Both the position numbers and the translations under genes were made by a program. This document shows, one piece after another, positions 38,701-59,700 of a stretch of 64,000 nucleotides of DNA. Source of the DNA: Mytilus trossulus (Eukaryota); NCBI RefSeq assembly GCF_036588685.1, contig NC_086376.1:87523630-87587629 (forward strand). The letters are read 5' to 3'. Each line of letters begins with the position of its first letter. Within the stretch, counting starts at the first letter, position 1. Under the pieces are notes generated by a model. That model saw nothing but the letters and a program-made list of their open reading frames with translations, had not been told where the DNA came from and did not search any database.

Positions 38701-41700
38701 AAAAGAACATTTAAAAATATAAAAAAAAGTCAATCATTCAAAATACAATCAAAGTGCTTGTAAGTATTGAATGATAAAGATTGCATTAATTTATCAGTGG
38801 GAAATAAAATTAATAAATATCGCATTGAATTAAGCATTGGTTGTGGTTGATACAACTACAATTTTGGACAATGGGAGACAACTCCAATTTTTAAAGATTG
38901 CTTTTATAATGACATTGTTTATATTTTTAGAACAGATGTCAGATGCATGCACCTTGCATAAGTTATGTAATTTTTCTTGATAGGTGTAGCTTTACTTTGT
39001 AATTGGAATATCTGAGCATACATTACATTTATAAGTTTCTGGAAATGTTCATGGATAAGATGTATAGAATGTTATGATCAATGCACTATATTTTGTGTAT
39101 CAAAAAAGGTAGTGATAAGCCTTAGAAGATTTAGATATCAAGTCAGTCCCATAAGGTTTTGATTGTATTCCATGCAATCTTTACCTAAAAATGGAAAAAA
39201 CATTAATTTGTCACTGCTAATATTTTTTTTGTGATTGTAGGAATTTTTCAATAAGTTGTATTGAGTTTATTAGGAAAAGTTGCAGTACCAAAAAAAGCAA
39301 TGGCAAAGTCCATGCTTTGGTTAGGAACAACTAAATAATTATTCAAAATAAAAAAAAAAAAAAAAGATGCACAGCAGCATTATATGATTAAGAAGACATT
39401 TAAAAATAGTTCACTCAGAAAGAGTTGCAGATACAATATTGGTATTTTCAAAATTATGCTATGGCAAAGTCTGTGTTTTGGTATTAAAGGAAAACCCCTA
39501 AAAAAAAATTATTCATATCAAAAGTATAATTACCTGTTTTAGCTGTCCTAACTTCCACAGCGCTATCTGACAGTTTATTTAACAATGCTGTATACATTAA
39601 TGTCTGCTCTTGTAATATATCCATACATTTTATACTCTGAAAATAGAAACACTTATTTTTGACATTCCTTTTAGTGGATGTTAACACCATAAACATAAAA
39701 TTTTGCAAAATTAGTAACTACATTCATATATCAAACATTTTTAAAATACTTTTAGATCATAAAAATATCTACATATATCTAATTTTTCTGTACATATTAC
39801 CATTGCACACATTAATGGTTTTCATTTTAGAGTAAATTCCTTTCACACCGCCTATCCTGACAAACTTCACTTGATATACTGTATGTGTTTTACTCATAAC
39901 TTAAGGCCCTACACTGACCTATCTTTGTTTACTTCTATGGCAATTGGTCTCTTTTGGAGAGTTTTCTCATTGGCAATCATACCACATATTTTTTTTTATA
40001 TTGACACCAGATTTTTAATATAACCTATAAATTACTATTATCCTAACTGGGAAGTATCTTTATTGAATCAACCTGGTTTGGACTAACCTTAACAATCCAC
40101 TGTGCAGAAAGTAGACCAAGTCTACAACATATGTATGTCACGGTTATCTTATCCACTTCTCTCTTTTTCCTGGAGGAAGTGGATTTCATACTGTCATATA
40201 ATCCATCTAGATCTAAACAAAGGGATGTTGCTAATTCAGAAACACTGTCATTTCTGAAATAATAAAGTCATATCCATGTAGCTGTTGTTTATTTAGATAA
40301 ATTGACCAGTTGGAGAAATCATATCTACAACTAACTGAATCCACTGAAAGAGATTACCAGAAACAAAAAGTTCCTATTAAAAAGAGGTGAGATTCAAGGT
40401 ATGGTCAGGGAAATATCAATCAAATTTAAAAAAAAAACCATGTCCATGTTACAACTTTACATTATCAAAGAATAAATCATAAAGCTATGACATTAAAATC
40501 AATGATGAACTTACCCAAGACATGCACTGTGTAAGAGATTCCTAATCTGACTATTCTGATGCAGTATATGTTACTTACCCAAGACATGCACTGTGTAAGA
40601 GATTCCTGATCTGACTATTCTGATGCAGTATATGTTACTTACCCAAGACATGCACTGTGTAAGAAATTCCTGATCTGACTATTCTGATGCAGTACATGTT
40701 ACTTACCCAAGACATGCACTGTGTAAGAGATTCCTAATCTGACTATTCTGATGCAGTATATGTTACTTACCCAAGACATGCACTGTGTAAGAGATTCCTA
40801 ATCTGACTATTCTGATGCAGTACATGTTACTTACCCAAGACATGCACTGTGTAAGAGATTCCTGATCTGACTATTCTGATGCAGTATATGTTACTTACCC
40901 AAGACATGCACTGTGTAAGAGATTCCTGATCTGACTATTCTGATGCAGTATATGCTACTTACCCAAGACATGCACTGTGTAAGAGATTCCTAATCTGACT
41001 ATTCTGATGCAGTACATGTTACTTACCCAAGACATGCACTGTGTAAGAGATTCCTGATCTGACTATTCTGATGCAGTATATGTTACTTACCCAAGACATG
41101 CACTGTGTAGGAGATTCCTGATCTGACTATTCTGATGCAGTATATGTTACTTACCCAAGACATGCACTGTGTAAGAGATTCCTAATCTTACCATTCTGAT
41201 GCAGTATATGTTACTTACCCAAGACATGCACTGTGTAGGAGATTCCTGATCTGACTATTCTGATGCAGTATATGTTACTTACCCAAGACATGCACTGTGT
41301 AAGAGATTCCTGATCTGACTATTCTGATGCAGTACATGTTACTTACCCAAGACATGCACTGTGTAAGAGATTCCTGATCTGACTATTCTGATGCAGTATA
41401 TGTTACTTACCCAAGACATGCACTGTGTAGGAGATTCCTAATCTGACTATTCTGATGCAGTATATGTTACTTACCCAAGACATGCACTGTGTAGGAGATT
41501 CCTAATCTGACTATTCTGATGCAGTATATGTTACTTACCCAAGACATGCACTGTGTAAGAGATTCCTGATCTGACTATTCTGATGCAGTATATGTTACTT
41601 ACCCAAGACATGCACTGTGTAAGAGATTCCTGATCTGACTATTCTGATGCAGTATATGTTACTTACCCAAGACATGCACTGTGTAGGAGATTCCTGATCT

Positions 41701-44700
41701 GACTATTCTGATGCAGTATATGTTACTTACCCAAGACATGCACTGTGTAAGAGATTCCTAATCTTACCATTCTGATGCAGTATATGTTACTTACCCAAGA
41801 CATGCACTGTGTAGGAGATTCCTGATCTGACTATTCTGATGCAGTATATGTTACTTACCCAAGACATGCACTGTGTAAGAGATTCCTGATCTGACTATTC
41901 TGATGCAGTATATGTTACTTACCCAAGACATGCACTGTGTAAGAGATTCCTAATCTGACTATTCTGATGCAGTACATGTTACTTACCCAAGACATGCACT
42001 GTGTAAGAGATTCCTGATCTGACTATTCTGATGCAGTATATGTTACTTACCCAAGACATGCACTGTGTAAGAGATTCCTGATCTGACTATTCTGATGCAG
42101 TACATGTTACTTACCCAAGACATGCACTGTGTAAGAGATTCCTAATCTTACCATTCTGATGCAGTATATGTTACTTACCCAAGACATGCACTGTGTAGGA
42201 GATTCCTGATCTGACTATTCTGATGCAGTATATGTTACTTACCCAAGACATGCACTGTGTAAGAGATTCCTGATCTGACTATTCTGATGCAGTATATGTT
42301 ACTTACCCAAGACATGCACTGTGTAAGAGATTCCTAATCTGACTATTCTGATGCAGTACATGTTACTTACCCAAGACATGCACTGTGTAAGAGATTCCTG
42401 ATCTGACTATTCTGATGCAGTATATGTTACTTACCCAAGACATGCACTGTGTAAGAGATTCCTGATCTGACTATTCTGATGCAGTATATGCTACTTACCC
42501 AAGACATGCACTGTGTAAGAGATTCCTAATCTGACTATTCTGATGCAGTACATGTTACTTACCCAAGACATGCACTGTGTAAGAGATTCCTGATCTGACT
42601 ATTCTGATGCAGTATATGTTACTTACCCAAGACATGCACTGTGTAGGAGATTCCTGATCTGACTATTCTGATGCAGTATATGTTACTTACCCAAGACATG
42701 CACTGTGTAAGAGATTCCTAATCTTACCATTCTGATGCAGTATATGTTACTTACCCAAGACATGCACTGTGTAGGAGATTCCTGATCTGACTATTCTGAT
42801 GCAGTATATGTTACTTACCCAAGACATGCACTGTGTAAGAGATTCCTGATCTGACTATTCTGATGCAGTACATGTTACTTACCCAAGACATGCACTGTGT
42901 AAGAGATTCCTGATCTGACTATTCTGATGCAGTATATGTTACTTACCCAAGACATGCACTGTGTAGGAGATTCCTAATCTGACTATTCTGATGCAGTATA
43001 TGTTACTTACCCAAGACATGCACTGTGTAGGAGATTCCTAATCTGACTATTCTGATGCAGTATATGTTACTTACCCAAGACATGCACTGTGTAAGAGATT
43101 CCTGATCTGACTATTCTGATGCAGTATATGTTACTTACCCAAGACATGCACTGTGTAAGAGATTCCTGATCTGACTATTCTGATGCAGTATATGTTACTT
43201 ACCCAAGACATGCACTGTGTAGGAGATTCCTGATCTGACTATTCTGATGCAGTATATGTTACTTACCCAAGACATGCACTGTGTAAGAGATTCCTAATCT
43301 TACCATTCTGATGCAGTATATGTTACTTACCCAAGACATGCACTGTGTAGGAGATTCCTGATCTGACTATTCTGATGCAGTATATGTTACTTACCCAAGA
43401 CATGCACTGTGTAAGAGATTCCTGATCTGACTATTCTGATGCAGTACATGTTACTTACCCAAGACATGCACTGTGTAAGAGATTCCTGATCTGACTATTC
43501 TGATGCAGTATATGTTACTTACCCAAGACATGCACTGTGTAAGAGATTCCTGATCTGACTATTCTGATGCAGTACATGTTACTTACCCAAGACATGCACA
43601 GTGCAAGAGATTCCTAATCTGACTATTCTGATGCAGTACATGTTACTTACCCAAGACATGCACTGTGTAAGAGATTCCTGATCTGACTATTCTGATGCAG
43701 TACATATTACTTACCCAAGACATGCACTGTGTAAGAGATTCCTAATCTGACTATTCTGATGCAGTATATGTTACTTACCCAAGACATGCACTGTGTAAGA
43801 GATTCCTGATCTGACTATTCTGATGCAGTACATGTTACTTACCCAAGACATGCACTGTGCAAGAGATTCCTAATCTGACTATTCTGATGCAGTATATGTT
43901 ACTTACCCAAGACATGCACTGTGTAAGAGATTCCTAATCTGACTATTCTGATGCAGTATATGTTCAAACAGTTGTGAGTCTTTCAATGGAATGCTGTCAT
44001 TTGGCCACACTCTTCTGTCACAACCTTTAGTGTAAAGGTCAGAGGTCAAACCTTCAAGGTCATCCAGAACACAAAATATTCTTACAGCCCATTCTCTGCA
44101 AAGTTGTTCAAGTTGACATTTATCTTGATGAGTAGCTGCAATAAAGAAAGCTACATTAACATATATGTAATGTGGTTTCATAACTCTACAACAGTTTAAT
44201 ACAGGGTGATATCTTATATTTTTATAACTTTGACAATTATTCATCATAAGTTTTTTTTTTTTTTTGGTTTCAAACATTTTAAAAGTGAAATTGTGAAATA
44301 ACATTTTTTATAAATAATCATTTTTTGTTCATTTTTAACAAAATAAGCTCAAAAACATTGATGATGCACCATTGGCTTGCAAGTAGATAATTCAACTCAT
44401 TTGAATCTGTATTCATGGGAACTTCAATTTAAAATTGTTTCTATAGGACTTTTGGTAATTTGGATAGATGTTTTTTTTTTAAATATGTTATAAATAAAAT
44501 AACAGATTTTGAGTCTTATCAGTGAACATATATTTGACAGCTAATGCCCCTTAAAAAACAGGTCATCGGACTTCCGAGATAAACATGAGTGCTGACAACT
44601 CATAAAATTACTATGGTTACAAAAAAATAGTACACTATAAGCCATAGTAATATTATCTAATGTTAATAACAGGACAATGACAATCTTTAGGACTTACATG

Positions 44701-50700: not shown

Positions 50701-53700
50701 TATATATTCTTTAATGCGGTTTACACTAAACTAATAAATCTTACGTGTGGCATCAGTTGAGCTAGCTGCAGCAAAGCTGGCAACTTGACACATTTTATCT
50801 GCATGTTCTTCAAACTCTGTTATCAAAATGTCATTTTCTCCTATAGACTGATCCTGTTGAATGATAAAATATACATTCCAATTAATACCAAATTAAAAAA
50901 CAAAACAAATAAAATCTGGAGACTGTCAAATTGATCCAAGACTGTTTTACAAATAATAAGACATTACTTTCAGCCAAGTCTCACCATAAGACTTTAGACA
51001 AAGTTCAGAATCGGGCACTATGTATCATCACAGGTGCTATGAAATCAACACCAATAAAAAGTATGGAGGATATAACAAACATACCCCCAATAGGAAAGAG
51101 AAGGGAGTGCAAAGCCATGATACAGGCCGGCAAATATCAGTGTTCACAAGACCACCCAATGAATACTAGACTAAAACAACTCTCATCAGGCAGACTAAAA
51201 AGATCCAGCTTTACATTAGAGACAAGAGCATTGCAAAGAAAACACCATGAAGCCCTACCAAAATATATAGAACACATAGTTTTCACAAAGAATAACACCC
51301 CATGTGAAGAAAAACTTGGAAATGTCACCATCCAGACCTCAGTTCCGCTCATTACCACCAGAGATGAACAGACTAGTAATGTAAAGAAAATACTTACAAT
51401 GAGTATGCTTGAAGAACAGTATCCTTCAGAAACTTGGGTAAGAGTATATACAGATGGGTCAGCCACAAATGCCACAACAAATGGAGGGGCTGGTATATAC
51501 ATTAAGTACCCCAATGGAGATCAACAATCAGAAGCAATACCAACAGGCCTACATTATTCAAACTACAAAGCTGAAGAAGAAGCCATTACTAATGCTGCAC
51601 ACTCCATCAAAAACAAAATCGATGATACATCTCAAGTAGTATTCCTGACTGATGCCCTCCCTGTTCTACAAGCTTTGAAGAACGACAAGCTGCCTCAACT
51701 CCAACAAGCTTTATACAACATCAAAAGTCTGACAACAGTAATTCAGTGGATCCCTTCACACTGTGGAGTTTGGACTAATGAATAAGCCGACAGATTAGCA
51801 AAGTATGGTGCTGAACAACAACAGGAAGAAAATCCAGTCTGCTTTACAGAGATGAAGACTATCATAAAATCTCTGTTCAACACTCCACAGCAACAAGATA
51901 GTTACCACCAGCTAACAAGATCTGAACAAACCACCATATTTAGACTGAGGACAGGACCAACATCTACACAAAGTCATGAAAGTTGTTCCATCTCCTATGT
52001 GTCCTTGTGGAGAAGCAGACCAGGATACAGCACACCTCTTCCAGTCATGCAATTTCCATCAGGCATTGAGAGATAAGATATGGCACTCAGTAACATCACT
52101 TGAAGAGAAGCTATACGTACCAGTGGATGCCCTACAGAAGACCACCAGATTTGTTGAGGAGACTGGTATTCAAGTGTAAAGGCGAACGATAAGAAGAAGA
52201 ATAAGACATTTATCAATTATGCTTGCTTTAAAAGATCTGAATTCTTTTAAATAAAATGACACATCAGATTATTTTACCTCGAAATAACATGTCAACAAAT
52301 TTTATCGTAAAGTTAACAGAACATTTTCTCTTCTTGATGTCCCAACTAAATAAAAAAAGCTCATCTTTTACTATTAATTTTTCTATTCTAGTAATATATA
52401 TTTCGAGCATAGGGAATACAAAATCCTATTAAGAGTATCTTTCATGAGTTTCTTGACCTATTAACAATTTCCATTACTCCAAGAACGATGTTATCAAATG
52501 TAGTAATGTATAAATAGCAGAGGAGTATATGAAAAGAAAAATGGTGTTGTACCTGTTTAGGATACATAGCTGCCTTTATCAATCTTTCTATAGGTTCTGT
52601 TGTTTCTTTGAATATATCTACTATCAAGTGAAGTAAACTCATGTTGACGTTCTTCTCCAGTTCACAAAACTCATCAATCAAGGATTCACAACACTCATCA
52701 TAATCCTCTCTGTACAAAATAAAATCTCATTATACATTGTAGTGCTGTGTATTCATCATTATTCTGGATATACCATTTTTTATCTATGAGTAGGTATATA
52801 TGTGATCTTTGATGGTTATATAGGCTTGAAAATATAATTTGGCAAATCACAAAAAATATAGGTTCTCATTCTTTCAATCCACAAAAAATGAATGAATCCA
52901 CAGTAATCAAAATTTAGGTAACTATTAAACAAGAATGTCTCCAAAGTACATGGATGCCCCACTCGCACTATCATTTTCCATGTTCAATGGACCGAGAAAT
53001 TGGATAAAAAATATAATTAGGCATTAAAATTAGAAAGATAATATCATAGGGAACATGTGTACTAAGTTTCAAGTTGATTGGACTTCAACTTCATTAAAAA
53101 CTACCTTGACCAAAAACTTTAACCTGAAGTGGGACAGACGGACGAACGAACAGATGGTCGAACGAACATACAGATGAACGAACAGACACACAGACCAGAA
53201 AACATAATGCCCCTCTACTATTGTAGGTGGGGCATAAAAACAATTACCTTTCACAATGAGGGAAATTTATTGTAAGCAATAATGTGATAAAAACAAGAGT
53301 GTCCATGCTGAAGTGGCTTCTTGCTTTACTGACCATGACTGAATTTTATGTTGAAATCTTTCGGATTAAAATTAGAAACAAATAAAACAGAATATATTTT
53401 GACACATCTTAAAATATCTTTTGATTGTATCTAATTTTCCCTTTCTGTTACTTATATCTTTTAAATGTATTGTTTGTGACACATGTTCTTTTTTCAGTTT
53501 CATTATATATATACTGACCTCATTCTTTGTATATCTGTTTTCTCTTTGATAGAAATGGACAAGGCTAATACACGACCTTTAAGTTGTAAAATCTACAAAT
53601 AATTATATATTTATCACATTAAAAACTGGTTTTAATGGCACTCCTGCATTTCTTGTTGGCAAACATAATATAAATACATGGATATTCTTATACATTAGTT

Positions 53701-56700
53701 TAATTTTTCAATGTCTACTTTTGTTTTTTGTATTTATTAAAATATCAATCTCCATATCACAATTGTTGTATAAATCCTCAATTGGGTTGAATGAGACATT
53801 CCACAATACTTTTCAACTTTAAAATTGGTTTGGTATTTTTAACTTTTTTGTTTTGAGCTTCACTGTTGAGTCTTTTGTTGACAAAAACCTGCATCTGGAT
53901 TTAAAATTATAAACCTGGTTTCTTTGATGTTTTTTTTCTTACCATCAACTCAGGATTCAGATTTCATATAAAACCAAAAAGAATGCTATGTTTGATGTTG
54001 CACTAAGCATACAATCAGTGCACTATTATAAATTATTATGTCTACTCACCCTTTGACAATTAATGATTATAAGATTTCTATATGTATCTGTACAGAGATG
54101 TGCCACTAACATACTATGTCTGATAATTCCTTCTGTCCAACTTTCTACATCTATATCTAAATCTTCTCGGTTTTCTGTAGACAGGGCCTCTAATATCTAA
54201 AATTGTTTGCATTAATAACATATTTTTTATAACACCCTTGATAACATATATATCCCACAGTTCTTGAAAAGAAGTGGCTTGAAAGTTTTGAAGACCAAAA
54301 TTTTGGCATTTTGCAAATAGAAATAAAAGTGAGTAGCAGCAGATTTTCATGGATGACCTGAGAATATTTTTGAGAGCCATGCTATCCTATTTGTATGCTC
54401 TTATATAGATATACATTTAAAATCATAACATTGAAATACACACCTGACACTAGGGTGAAAATAGGTTGAATATTGATATTTGATGTAAAGTGTGATCACT
54501 TCAGCACATAATGCATGAAGACTTACATAAAACTTTAAAAAAGAAATACAGCAATAAAAGACTTGTTCCTATGATATAAGGATGTATACGCAAAAATTAA
54601 TAAAAAAGTTGTGGCAAATATTGTTGTAATATGTGTATGATGAGTATTTCATATTTACTGTGACACATATACAGAATAGTGAAAAATATTGTCTAAATAA
54701 GTGTATGAGGTGTATGTCATATTTATTGTGCCACATATACAAAATAATGACAATAATTGATTATTTATGTTCAAGAACCATTTTTAAAATAAAATGTCTT
54801 TACTTAAAACATACCTGATCAATTTTAGAAACAAAGTATCCAGGTTCCTCTACATCTAAATAATCTTCTTCAGTAAATTTGTTTTCTATGGCCTCAACTA
54901 TATCTCTAACAGCAGACAAAACTTGGTTTATCACATAGGACTTGCTCACCTGTCAAAAAGTTAAAGTCTAATAATAATCAAGATTAAAAATGTTAAAACT
55001 AGGTAAAGTGGATTCTATTAAGGATTTCAGATTTTAAGTACAGTATTTTGTGTTTCCGTTAGAGATGTTTGTTCTCATCATTTAAATCTTCAGTTCAGGA
55101 TCTAAAATAAAGGTTATGATTACTTTTGGATCTGCTTATTCATGCAAATATACTGAACCTAACCGTGTAATACTACTTACATGAGCCTGTGCATTACTAG
55201 GATATTTTATACAACTTTGTAAAGCTACACTTATTGATGGAATGGATTTCTTCAGTAGATTGAGAGCTGTAATTATTTTCTCCCTTTGTCTATCTTGACA
55301 CAGATCTTTTTGTCTCTTGTTTGCTAAAGATGTTAAAATGGAAGTAGTATCTGTGAAACTCTGAAAGTAAAACCAAGATGTGCTTAAGATGTTAGAATGG
55401 AAGTTGTATCTGTGAAACTCTGAAAGTAAAACCAAGATGTGCTAAAGATGTTAGAATGGAAGTAGTATCTGTGAAACTCTGAAAGTAAAACCAAGATGTG
55501 CTAAAGATGTCAGAATGGAAGTTGTATCTGTGAAACTCTGAAAGTAAAACCAAGATGTGCTAAAGATGTCAGAATGGAAGTTGTATCTGTGAAACTCTGA
55601 AAGTAAAACCAAGATGTGCTAAAGATGTTAGAATGGAAGTAGTATCTGTGAAACTCTGAAAGTAAAACCAAGATGTGCTAAAGATGTCAGAATGGAAGTT
55701 GTATCTGTGAAACTCTGAAAGTAAAACCAAGATGTGCTAAAGATGTCAGAATGGAAGTTGTATCTGTGAAACTCTGAAAGTAAAACCAAGATGTGCTAAA
55801 GATGTCAGAATGGAAGTTGTATCTGTGAAACTCTGAAAGTAAAACCAAGATGTGCTAAAGATGTTAGAATGGAAGTAGTATCTGTGAAACTCTGAAAGTA
55901 AAACCAAGATGTGCTAAAGATGTCAGAATGGAAGTTGTATCTGTGAAACTCTGAAAGTAAAACCAAGATGTGCTAAAGATGTCAGAATGGAAGTTGTATC
56001 TGTGAAACTCTGAAAGTAAAACCAAGATGTGCTAAAGATGTTAGAATGGAAGTAGTATCTGACCAAGATGTGCTAAAGATGTCAGAATGGAAGTTGTATC
56101 TGTGAAACTCTGAAAGTAAAACCAAGATGTGCTAAAGATGTTAGAATGGAAGTAGTATCTGTGAAACTCTGAAAGTAAAACCAAGATGTGCTAAAGATGT
56201 TAGAATGGAAGTAGTATCTGTGAAACTCTGAAAGTAAAACCAAGATGTGCTAAAGATTTTAGAATGGAAGTAGTATCTGTGAAACTCTGAAAGTAAAACC
56301 AAGATGTGCTAAAGATGTTAGAATGGAAGTTGTATCTGTGAAACTCTGAAAGTAAAACCAAGATGTGCTTAAGATGTTAGAATGGAAGTTGTATCTGTGA
56401 AACTCTGAAAGTAAAACCACTGTCTTATTAGTATGGATTAAAAATAATAAGGAAAGGAAGTTTGCTAAAATTGCTAAGTTTATTTATTCCTGCATTCTGC
56501 TTTTGTATAACAAGCCCTTCTGTCATGTAGTGTTTTAGCTACTAATTTTAACATTGTCATAAAGCAAGAGGTTTGGCATGTCATTAAACCAGGTTCAACC
56601 CACCATTTTTTTTAATGTCCTGTACCCTATCAGGAATATGGCAGTTTTTATCAAATACTTTGTTTCTAAATGTGTTGGTGTTTGTTTTGTTGCACCTCTG

Positions 56701-59700
56701 TGTTCCTGTTGTTTTTCTCTTATAGTTATTAAATGTGTTTCCATCAGTTTTGGTTGATGACCCCAATTTGTTTGTTTCTCTATTGATTTATGAATTTTGA
56801 ACACCAGTATACTACTGTTGCATTTATCAATAATTCGAAATCCTTTTCAACATGTGTCTGGTTTATTAATATGATTACCTTAAATCTAGATAACAGATCA
56901 GTCATATTATTAACATGACTTAGGAGTCCAACAGTTTCTGAGACAGTATGGGCTGCAGCCAGAATTCTCCTAACTTCATAATCATCAGAGACAAGTAACA
57001 CCTACAAAATAGTAAACAATATTGTTTTCACATAATATGCATACAGTTTAGGGTTCTTTATTTGTTCCAAGTAGATAAGACATTGTTAATTTATCTTCTT
57101 GCATTTATAATAAGAAGTACTAATACATGTATATATATTTACTTTTTTATTTATCTATTAAATGTGAAGTTGGCCAAAAAAAATCAAAGTTTTCAAAATA
57201 TTATGCTTCTGAGGTCCTAATATGAACTCTGTTAATCGACCAGAAAGTCATACAAAGACAAAAAAAAATCAAATCTAGTATCTTTATTGTTCATTTCAAA
57301 ATAATCAGGAAAGCAACTAGCATTTCATGGACTACATCTTACTTTCATTGTTCCTTGAAGAACATTCTTTGAGGCAGTTATAACTCGACTCTTATTTTCT
57401 TTACTAGCTGATGCCGTAACTCTCTGTGATGCTATATATAAATCACTGCTAGATAAATCTAAGATCTCACAAGCACTCTCCATCTGTCTCTTCAGCTCCT
57501 GTTATAACATATAAGTGAATATATATAAATCACTGCTAGATAAATCTAAGATCTCACAAGCACTCTCCATCTGTCTCTTCAGCTCCTGTTATAACATATA
57601 AGTAAATATATATAAATCACTGCTAGATAAATCTAAGATCTCACAAGCACTCTCCATCTGTCTTTTCAGCTCCTGTTATAACATATAAGTAAATGTTCAG
57701 TGGTTGTCATATTTATTTTTTTTCGCAACTGTTTGTTATAAATTAGGCCATTAGTTTTCTCAATTGAATTGATTCATATTTTCATGTGGGTAACCATACA
57801 GTTTGATTTTTTCACGTTATTGAAGGCCTTACAGTTGCCTATAATTTCCTACATCCACTTCATTTGAACTTTGGTGGATAGTTGTCTTGTTGGCTATATA
57901 CCACATTCATGACCATAATGACATCTTCTAATTTTTTTTACAAAATTTATAAACTCAAATTCTGATTTTGTCTCTGAATTTAGCTTCAGTCAGCGCTACT
58001 AAATCTTTAGTTTTCTGTGTAATGTTTTGTGGACTGTTGTTTGTTGTTATTTTTCTTTTTGAATATCTTGCATGTGTCTTTGTATCTAATCAATGGGTTT
58101 TGATTACAATTTTGTAATGATTGAAATTTGTATTTAAAATAATGGTTTTAAAACTAATATTTGCCAAAATAAATTTAAACTAAATTGATTTTCCAGTCCA
58201 ATTCTAGCTGGTTCTTTTTACAATTAAATACAGTCTGAAAGGAGAAAAAAATTATAGAAATACATAAACCAACTGGTCATAAGATATTAGATTTTTGCTA
58301 AGGTTTGATTATCTCTTGCATGTCGCATGTCTTAGTGTCTAGTATATTTAACCATAAGTTACAAGAAATGTTTGTTGCCTACATCATCTGCAGTCTTGTT
58401 AGCTCTTTCTTTTCCTAGTGTCACAAGACGTTCTGCAGCCTGCATAACCATTTCAGCACAGGGCCCCATATCTGTTTGAATGCCATCTGAATGGTCAAGA
58501 ATGATCAACAACGAAATCTGAAAAAGAAAATATTTTTGAAATGATTAGTGATATATACAAAAAAAATGATTTATATTAAAGTATCAAAATAAAAATATAA
58601 GTGAACCAACATCTTGTGTTGTGATTGTGCGGTAGGGTAAAAACGAGTGGATACCGCTAGGTATTCACAGTCATCTTGAAAAAAATGAATATGTCGACAA
58701 TAAAGACAACAACACTCATGTTTTTACTGTGTAGTATCTATTTATTGGGTCTACATGTTTCGCCTAATCGATAGGCATCATCAGGACAATTGTACAAAGA
58801 AATATGACAGTGAAGTATGAATTTAGCGGTTAGCGGTTTTAACCGGAAGTACAAGTTAAACAATGGTGGTTATGGTGACGTTATATAAATAGATAGTGAA
58901 AGTGAAAGTAAATTACAATAGAAAATATATAAACATGATAAATAGAAATGTTCGTGTTTTCTTGAATGGTAACAGCATCTCTTGTGGTTGACATCTATCC
59001 TGTTCTGTGTAGTTAATCTCATGAGAGGTCTTTGGTGGTATTGCACGTTGTAGTTATCTAAATAAATAATCATGTCAGTGAATTCCAAATTGGACAACAC
59101 CTCACTGTTCACTCCGTACAGTCAACTGGCTTCGCTCTGGGACCCTTGAGTTACTGCTTCCAATTGCGTCGGAAATGGTGTGAAGTGTATGATCGTCGCA
59201 CATTTTGGAAATTAAAAAAAGTGGTAAATCCGTAAATATTTAATTATGAGTTGTGTTAATGATTTTACTTTTGATGTGGTTTGATGTTGAATCTGTACAT
59301 GCTGTAAGAGCTTCCAGCAGGTTTCTTCTTTCTTAACCGGTGGTAAAGTATTGTAATAGTTGAGACTCTGTTAAATCTTTATGTTAATTTTGCGTAGTGT
59401 CATAAATTCAGCTAGGTGGTCATGATTTTTTAATAGTGTTATCAGCGGTTGTAGCGATTTCTTCTTCTCTTGCTCCTTCTCTTCTTGGACAGTGTGGAAT
59501 CTTGGTCATTTTCAGGAAAAGATAAGGAATCTTGGTATTGGTCAGTAGCTGATCTCTTGCTGGATCCAGAACTTTTTCAAGGGTCGATTTGACTTGTACC
59601 CAAAACTTTAAGCTGAGGCAGGGCAGGGCAGACAAATTCTTGTCAAATCAGCATCTGGTCAAATTGACATCCTACATGTATGTAGTCATTTTGGCACCCA

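What the first reader, a model, noticed from the sequence alone, without database searches (positions are those of the whole stretch)
55322..56419. 18 tandem acceptors (TTTTACTTTCAG|AGT) upstream of exon 5, with a templated filler at the unit junction
Seen: only the acceptor at 55361-55362 continues into the exon. Upstream acceptors add 59n nt and reach TAA/TGA within the next unit. The functional acceptor is preceded by repeat sequence rather than the ancestral intron, so its branch point must come from exon-derived repeat sequence; CTAAC/CTGAC motifs occur in the copies, where the true exon has TTAAC. The unit junction contains about 5 extra nt (agatg) that match neither flank but copy the nearby aaagatgt. 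Inference: a template-switch or Pol theta-type origin, and possible selection for branch-point-like variants.
Basis: partly seen in the sequence, partly recalled or inferred. Interest (0 to 1): 0.7.

Follow-up and report, generated by a model that had tools for sequence, protein, structure and literature searches.

The report
Mussel splice-acceptor "mirage" with junction filler
The end of an intron and the start of the next exon of a mussel vinculin-family gene are repeated head to tail, giving 18 splice acceptors, and the main RNA-like assemblies carry only one copy, so this is likely a tolerated repeat of the "mirage" kind known from lancelets, with only weak signs of a templated origin and none that a branch point had to be selected.

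Summary
Confirmed: a 59-bp unit (15 nt intron end, 39 nt of exon 5, 5-nt filler) gives 18 acceptors in a Mytilus vinculin-family gene; 17 lead to stops. Two RNA-guessed runs of one study join exon 4 to a single unit and the exon body; the allele of origin is unresolved. The array occurs under four organism labels; one contig looks array-free. The filler is absent from all three native introns seen, so it arose at the junction. Templating is borderline (p about 0.05-0.07), and two other organisms carry a variant without an exact template. Branch-point selection is unsupported: CTRAY precedes 3 of 29 native acceptors versus 31 of 345 deep-intron windows, and the exon's TTAAC is already branch-like. 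One neighbouring array does show a CTGAT only before its working acceptor. The same gene has two more such arrays, and 10 of 37 flanking arrays have exon-edge anatomy. This is an amphioxus-type 'mirage' (PMC3087553); the scan has noted many on other DNA and in this genome.

The parts
55322..56419 (-). Acceptor-type mirage array: 59-bp unit (15 nt intron end + 39 nt exon 5 start + 5 nt filler), 18 acceptors
55361..55375 (-). Intronic part of the last unit with the productive acceptor AG (55362-55361)
   Evidence: RNA-guessed contigs
55181..55360 (-). Exon 5 (180 nt, phase 0; donor GTAAGT) of a vinculin-family gene
   Evidence: 100% identical over 60 aa to Mytilus protein P0001; PF01044
55376..55380 (-). 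Junction filler CATCT (last junction; same in every full unit of the window)
   Evidence: absent from native introns and CACCT in run X17
55391..55395 (-). Candidate branch motif CTAAC for the last acceptor (A at 55392, -32), exon-derived; predicted only
56024..56064 (-). 41-nt unit that lost its acceptor by an 18-nt deletion
56427..56433 (-). Native-intron branch-like TACTAAT, 24 nt before the first (ancestral-context) acceptor; predicted only
56879..57001 (-). Exon 4; donor GT at 56878-56877
   Evidence: joint in run X8
57433..57694 (-). Second acceptor array in the same gene (87 bp x3, exon 3); the two upstream acceptors hit TAA; no filler
40509..43964 (-). Donor array in the same gene (64 bp x54); the first donor (exon end 43907) matches the public protein models; blunt junction

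Best explanation
A 54-bp stretch across the intron 4/exon 5 border of a mussel vinculin-family gene is tandemly repeated with a 5-nt junction insertion, giving 18 acceptors, and it likely arose as one local duplication, later amplified by unequal exchange, that is tolerated because splicing likely uses the exon-side acceptor and removes the other copies with the intron. Shown: the anatomy; stops behind 17 of 18 acceptors; a one-unit junction as the majority path in RNA-guessed contigs; a filler that is not ancestral intron; presence of the array in several organisms. Inferred: the last acceptor wins because only it is followed by the whole 180-nt exon and its strong donor (exon definition), since the upstream context of the internal acceptors is nearly identical. 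The branch point is probably the exon-derived YTAAC at -32. Any leak to upstream acceptors would be removed by nonsense-mediated decay. The T>C change and the other unit variants spread by homogenisation that spares the coding end copy.
For: Anatomy and stops. All 11 of 11 Mytilus proteins of the cluster join exon 4 to exon 5 without repeat sequence (these are gene predictions). X8: a contig with a joint from the exon 4 donor to the unit start (depth 57.9) and a loose end that is the true exon body. X12: a 677-nt contig exon 6-exon 5-exon 4 (depth 16.7) with the last unit's TTAAC, in a run that also holds the array unit at depth 2.73. Array contigs appear in runs labelled organisms A, B, C and D; X17 also has a 766-nt contig running from native intron straight into exon 5. 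Such arrays are common: 3 in this gene, and 10 of 37 locus-specific flanking arrays vs 153 of 3000 random windows (p 1e-5), 4 of those 10 exons with Pfam hits. Amphioxus mirages are reported not to disturb splicing (PMC3087553 and PMC3902484, passages).
Against: The RNA label of X8 and X12 is a guess, both are from one study, and contigs show only the majority path. The mRNA could come from an array-free allele, and steady-state RNA cannot show products lost to decay. The array-free contig in X17 could be an assembler short-cut. In human reporter libraries equal tandem acceptors showed no positional preference (PMC6783452 section 7), so exclusive use of the last acceptor is not automatic. Exon definition was not tested here.
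Confidence: 0.8

Rival explanations
1. Leaky or poison array: upstream acceptors, especially the first one with its native TACTAAT or the last few, take a real share of splicing, and NMD hides the products, so copy number tunes gene dose.
For: Internal acceptors score the same as the real one (9.8). 16 of 17 copies carry the same branch-like motif. The nearest upstream acceptors would give ordinary-sized exons (239, 298 nt). The array unit is present in RNA-guessed run X12 (depth 2.73 vs 16.7).
Against: A unit depth of 2.73 summed over many copies also fits about 1% pre-mRNA or DNA background (my estimate, assuming about 18 copies). The array persists across four organism labels in a conserved, intact gene.
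Confidence: 0.12
2. Compensatory branch-point gain: the duplication displaced the native branch point, and selection fixed T>C in the copy so that the last acceptor stayed efficient.
For: All 17 copies have C where the true exon has T. T is also seen in X12's mRNA-like contig and X17's exon, while C is seen in organism C's copies. The match to the recalled U2-pairing motif rises from 5 of 7 to 6 of 7, equal to the native intron's. In a BUB3-like array (L191) a CTGAT at -20 occurs only before the working acceptor, in 1 of 13 upstream units.
Against: CTRAY precedes 3 of 29 native acceptors vs 31 of 345 deep-intron windows. Three other acceptor arrays show no gain. 2 of 5 arrays against a 9% background gives p 0.07, and the BUB3-like case was found through a word search that held 'branch point'. 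One early mutation plus homogenisation explains a fixed C.
Confidence: 0.12
3. The filler is untemplated or secondary: a random insertion at the junction, or a later change within the unit, and says nothing about Pol theta.
For: Template p is only 0.05-0.07 and was tested after the match was noticed. Entry and exit microhomologies are 1 nt each. CACCT (organism D; related CCT junction in C) has no exact template. Of 5 other short fillers (2-5 nt) in the flanks none reached p below 0.05 at the 20-nt window (best 0.067).
Against: A 7-nt direct match 11 nt from the breakpoint is the expected form of a templated insertion (PMC13031629 passages). CACCT is one transition away from it, so it may be the derived state.
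Confidence: 0.4
4. New-intron birth: the first acceptor is used and the repeats are removed as a second, new intron.
For: Proposed as a model for mirages in PMC3087553 (passage).
Against: The unit has no usable donor (best GT scores 0.9 vs 10.2 for the exon 5 donor). The first unit carries an in-frame TAA. RNA-guessed contigs show one unit only.
Confidence: 0.02

Closest known systems
Amphioxus 'mirage' minisatellites, acceptor type BflGb6 (also BflGb9, Adh3, troponin C, PGBD5). PMC3087553: seven passages seen. PMC3902484: one passage. The original Adh3 paper (PMC117041) is not held and was not seen.
   Same: Tandem copies of an intron 3' end plus the exon start; splice signals in the copies; normal mRNA; copy number differs between haplotypes; boundary copies escape homogenisation; unit length within the reported 10-160 bp.
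   Different: A mussel gene; 18 acceptors vs 3-6 units in BflGb6; only 15 nt of intron, so the native branch point is left behind; a 5-nt junction filler; the array is shared by four organism labels. The passages seen do not discuss fillers or branch points.
Human F7 intron 7 37-bp VNTR (PMC1557585; abstract and outline seen)
   Same: A minisatellite spanning an exon-intron boundary whose identical extra splice sites stay silent.
   Different: Donor side, explained by 5'-to-3' scanning. It mirrors the 64-bp x54 donor array of this gene, not the acceptor array, where the last site must win.
Pol theta (TMEJ)-completed tandem duplications with templated junction insertions (PMC13031629; five passages seen)
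   Same: A 1-20 bp insertion at the junction between tandem copies that matches flanking sequence.
   Different: Those duplications arise in TONSL mutants and are far larger (median about 200 kb in the Arabidopsis passage seen). Here the unit is 59 bp, the match is statistically marginal, and no genetic test is possible.

Membership tests
Mirage minisatellite (PMC3087553) | [quoted passage not shown] | tested here: met
   15 nt intron + 39 nt exon 5 per unit
Mirage minisatellite (PMC3087553) | Copies keep AG/GT splice signals | tested here: met
   18 acceptors; 1 unit lacks one
Mirage minisatellite (PMC3087553) | Regular mRNA splicing is not disturbed | tested here: met
   Majority path in 2 RNA-guessed runs of one study is the normal junction; allele of origin and NMD-lost products not resolved
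Mirage minisatellite (PMC3087553) | Length or copy variation between haplotypes | tested here: met
   41-nt unit in the window; shorter junction in X11; unit-contig depth 10.5 in X2 vs 170 in X17; likely array-free contig in X17; contig-level evidence only
Mirage minisatellite (PMC3087553) | Homogenised copies with boundary copy excluded | tested here: met
   17 of 17 copies have C where the coding end copy has T
Mirage minisatellite (PMC3087553) | Somatic instability (Adh3) | not testable with these tools
   Needs long reads of several tissues of one animal
Pol theta-type templated-junction duplication | Short insertion at the junction belonging to neither flank | tested here: met
   5 nt; absent from three native introns
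Pol theta-type templated-junction duplication | Insertion copied from flanking DNA beyond chance | tested here: inconclusive
   7-nt match, p 0.048-0.074; the variant CACCT has no exact match
Pol theta-type templated-junction duplication | Dependence on POLQ | not testable with these tools
   Historical germline event
Intron gain by tandem duplication | Unit supplies a usable donor as well as an acceptor | tested here: not met
   Best GT score 0.9 vs 10.2

The most novel reading that the evidence does not exclude
Acceptor-side mirages in mussels survive only when exon-derived repeat sequence supplies or gains a branch point. The T>C change fixed in every copy here, and the CTGAT found only before the working acceptor of the BUB3-like array, would be compensatory splice-signal evolution written into repeats that were born by templated (Pol theta-like) junctions and have lasted through several mussel lineages. 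The many arrays in the genome would then be a natural experiment on 3' splice-site and branch-point choice.
Probability: 0.12. Interest if true: 0.55.

Novelty: new member of a known kind. Interest (0 to 1): 0.22.

Why it matters
Little as a single case: it is one more mirage, common in this genome. Two features are useful. The internal acceptors have almost the same upstream context as the working one, so the locus isolates the role of downstream exon and donor sequence in acceptor choice. Alleles with and without the array appear to exist, so splicing cost and branch-point position can be measured directly. Such arrays can also mislead gene models and short-read assemblies.

Tried and rejected
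RNA structure as the selector: four 150-nt windows (last, second-last, internal and first acceptor) all fold less well than shuffles (z +1.1 to +2.4); rejected. New intron within the array: no donor in the unit; rejected. Paralogues or other copies of the unit in the own genome: the DNA search found only this locus (counts are lower bounds). Metagenome contigs pattern scan: 0 matches. The look-up of sequencing runs listed no run on record as RNA; seven were guessed RNA and three of these were laid (X8, X22, X12). X22 gave a spliced exon 3-exon 4 contig but no listed piece across the exon 4/5 junction; most tables were crowded out by a high-copy repeat in intron 4, so DNA loose ends of X1 and X2 there were not visible. 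Template test with a 40-nt window was confounded for short-period arrays (it reads into the second copy), so only the 20-nt window is used for the flanking arrays. Five long apparent fillers (9-19 nt) are probably edge decay and were not interpreted. A fetch aimed at a DBNL donor array noted by the scan did not show it (L193). Paper searches (listings only) showed no paper on mussel mirage arrays or on branch points in mirages; the library lacks most subscription journals. The original Adh3 mirage paper could not be read, and supplements of PMC3087553 were not opened; both may bear on fillers and branch points.

Full report
What is there. The window holds a multi-exon gene on the minus strand. 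Exon 5 (55360-55181) is 100% identical over 60 aa to a 1508-aa Mytilus protein (P0001) that carries the Vinculin family (PF01044, E 6e-105) and Serendipity_A. P0001 maps exon by exon along the window from 60336 to 17518. The array at 55322-56419 is made of a 59-bp unit: 15 nt of intron end, 39 nt of exon 5 and a 5-nt filler. There are 18 acceptors, plus one 41-nt unit without an acceptor. Of the 18, 17 reach TAA or TGA within 33-84 nt; only the last reads into the exon. Two weak cryptic AGs in the last two units are in frame and open (scores 3.0 and -0.6 vs 9.8).

Which acceptor is used. All 11 of 11 Mytilus proteins in the cluster join exon 4 to exon 5 without repeat sequence; these are gene predictions. 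No listed run was on record as RNA, so three guessed-RNA runs were laid as contigs. X8 has a contig that joins the exon 4 donor to the unit start and leaves after 39 nt into the true exon body (depth 57.9). X12 has a 677-nt contig covering exon 6, exon 5 and exon 4 (depth 16.7); no difference is listed at 55336, so it carries the last unit's TTAAC. X12 also holds the array unit as an 89-nt circular contig at depth 2.73. X22 gave no listed piece across this junction. X8 and X12 come from one study, contigs show only the majority path, and the mRNA might come from an array-free allele. So last-acceptor use is likely, not proven.

Alleles and relatives. Array contigs or raised depth appear under four organism labels: A (X1, X12), B (X2), C (X11) and D (X17). 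X17 also has a 766-nt contig running from native intron straight into exon 5. This is likely an array-free allele, though an assembler short-cut is not excluded. The native intron ends in ACAG|TGG in the window and X11, and GCAG|TGG in X17.

The filler. It is CATCT in the window, X12 and X2, but CACCT in X17; X11 has units with a junction 5 nt shorter that shares CCT. CATCT plus one flanking base on each side matches ACATCTT 11 nt upstream. Random fillers of local composition do as well in 4.8-7.4% of trials. CACCT has no exact template in the window's flanks. Among 37 flanking arrays, 10 end blunt (-1 to +1), 17 overlap by 2 nt or more, and 10 have an apparent filler of 2 nt or more, 5 of them short; none of the 5 short ones reached p below 0.05 (best 0.067). 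Templated insertions at tandem-duplication junctions are a hallmark of Pol theta end joining (PMC13031629, passages), so the idea is reasonable. I put it at about even odds for templating and less for Pol theta specifically.

The branch point. With only 15 nt of intron in the unit, the last acceptor has lost the native TACTAAT (56433-56427). The best candidate is TTCTAAC with A at -32 (55392), a 6 of 7 match to the U2-pairing motif (motif recalled); an unmutated exon copy would give TTTTAAC, 5 of 7. T appears ancestral in the exon (window, X12, X17) and C is shared by copies in the window and in X11. But this gene does not need CTRAY: it precedes 3 of 29 native acceptors and 31 of 345 deep-intron windows (Fisher p 0.74), while TTRAY precedes 11 of 29. 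In human reporters an optimal branch point did not generally change the choice between tandem acceptors (PMC6783452, section 7). Of four other acceptor arrays, three show no gain (the 87-bp array, L072, L038). The fourth, a BUB3-like array (L191; name from the scan's note), has CTGAT at -20 only in the unit before its working acceptor, 1 of 13 upstream units. Since 16 of 17 copies here carry CTRAY, it cannot be what singles out the last acceptor.

How ordinary it is. The same gene has an 87-bp x3 acceptor array at exon 3 and a 64-bp x54 donor array. In 1.8 Mb of flanking DNA plus the window, TRF gave 589 rows, 98 arrays after filters and 45 locus-specific ones, 42 of them in the flanks. Five were dropped because their edges could not be phased, leaving 37. 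With splice-site matrices trained on this gene (30 acceptors, 29 donors, a few possibly misplaced), 11 of 37 had exon-edge anatomy at the first threshold vs 400 of 3000 random windows (p 0.007). At a stricter threshold chosen after seeing the scores it was 10 of 37 vs 153 of 3000 (p 1e-5). Four of those 10 exons have Pfam hits; the other six are unconfirmed. The scan's own unchecked notes list many such arrays in this genome and others.

Mechanism. Most likely a single local duplication across the boundary, with a 5-nt insertion at the join, was amplified and homogenised by unequal exchange (inferred). It is tolerated because the acceptor followed by the full exon and its strong donor is the one defined (inferred; exon definition is from my own knowledge and was not tested). 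Folding does not single out the last acceptor, and the unit has no donor that could make a new intron. Leak hidden by nonsense-mediated decay remains the main unexcluded rival.

Comparison. The anatomy is that of the amphioxus 'mirage' BflGb6, described as tandem duplications of an intron 3' end and exon start that do not disturb splicing (PMC3087553, passages; PMC3902484, one passage). The human F7 VNTR is the donor-side counterpart (PMC1557585, abstract and outline). Five defining features were tested and met; somatic instability could not be tested. Verdict: a real, ordinary new member of a known kind, interest 0.22. The branch-point compensation reading stays open at about 0.12.

Noticed in passing
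window 57433-57694 (-): 87-bp x3 acceptor array at exon 3 of the same gene. The unit length is a multiple of 3, but both upstream acceptors hit an in-frame TAA. Raised depth in X1 and X2 suggests it is shared with organism B.
   Followed up: partly
window 40509-43964 (-): 64-bp x54 donor array (GG|GTAAGT) behind exon 44135-43907; blunt junction; public protein models use the first donor.
   Followed up: partly
L191:1893-2622 (G000:C4 about 9,976,858), minus strand: BUB3-like acceptor array (56 bp): only the unit before the working acceptor has a T>A change that makes CTGAT at -20, and it is 1 nt longer.
   Followed up: partly
window 56418-56360 and 55433-55375: The first and the second-last units are the only two with the TTAAG variant, while interior units keep the exon's TTTAG; unexplained.
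   Followed up: no
L072:1276 onward (G000:C4 88,031,276-88,041,071): A 62-bp array of about 158 copies (9.8 kb) with acceptor anatomy before a 77-nt candidate exon; exon not confirmed by Pfam.
   Followed up: partly
L076:6268-7173, L078:6595-7258, L079:9945-L080:385: Three donor-type arrays behind calcium-binding EGF exons within 35 kb, probably one gene.
   Followed up: partly
G000:C4 87,872,847 (86 bp x2): Tandem duplication whose 4-nt filler forms an inverted repeat with the flank (7-nt match, p about 0.07).
   Followed up: partly
window 50913-51785 (+): 290-codon open frame with an RNase H domain (PF00075) inside an intron of the gene, likely a retroelement fragment.
   Followed up: partly
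window 56550-56860: Intron 4 carries pieces of very high-copy dispersed repeats (summed contig depth above 100,000 in X1).
   Followed up: no
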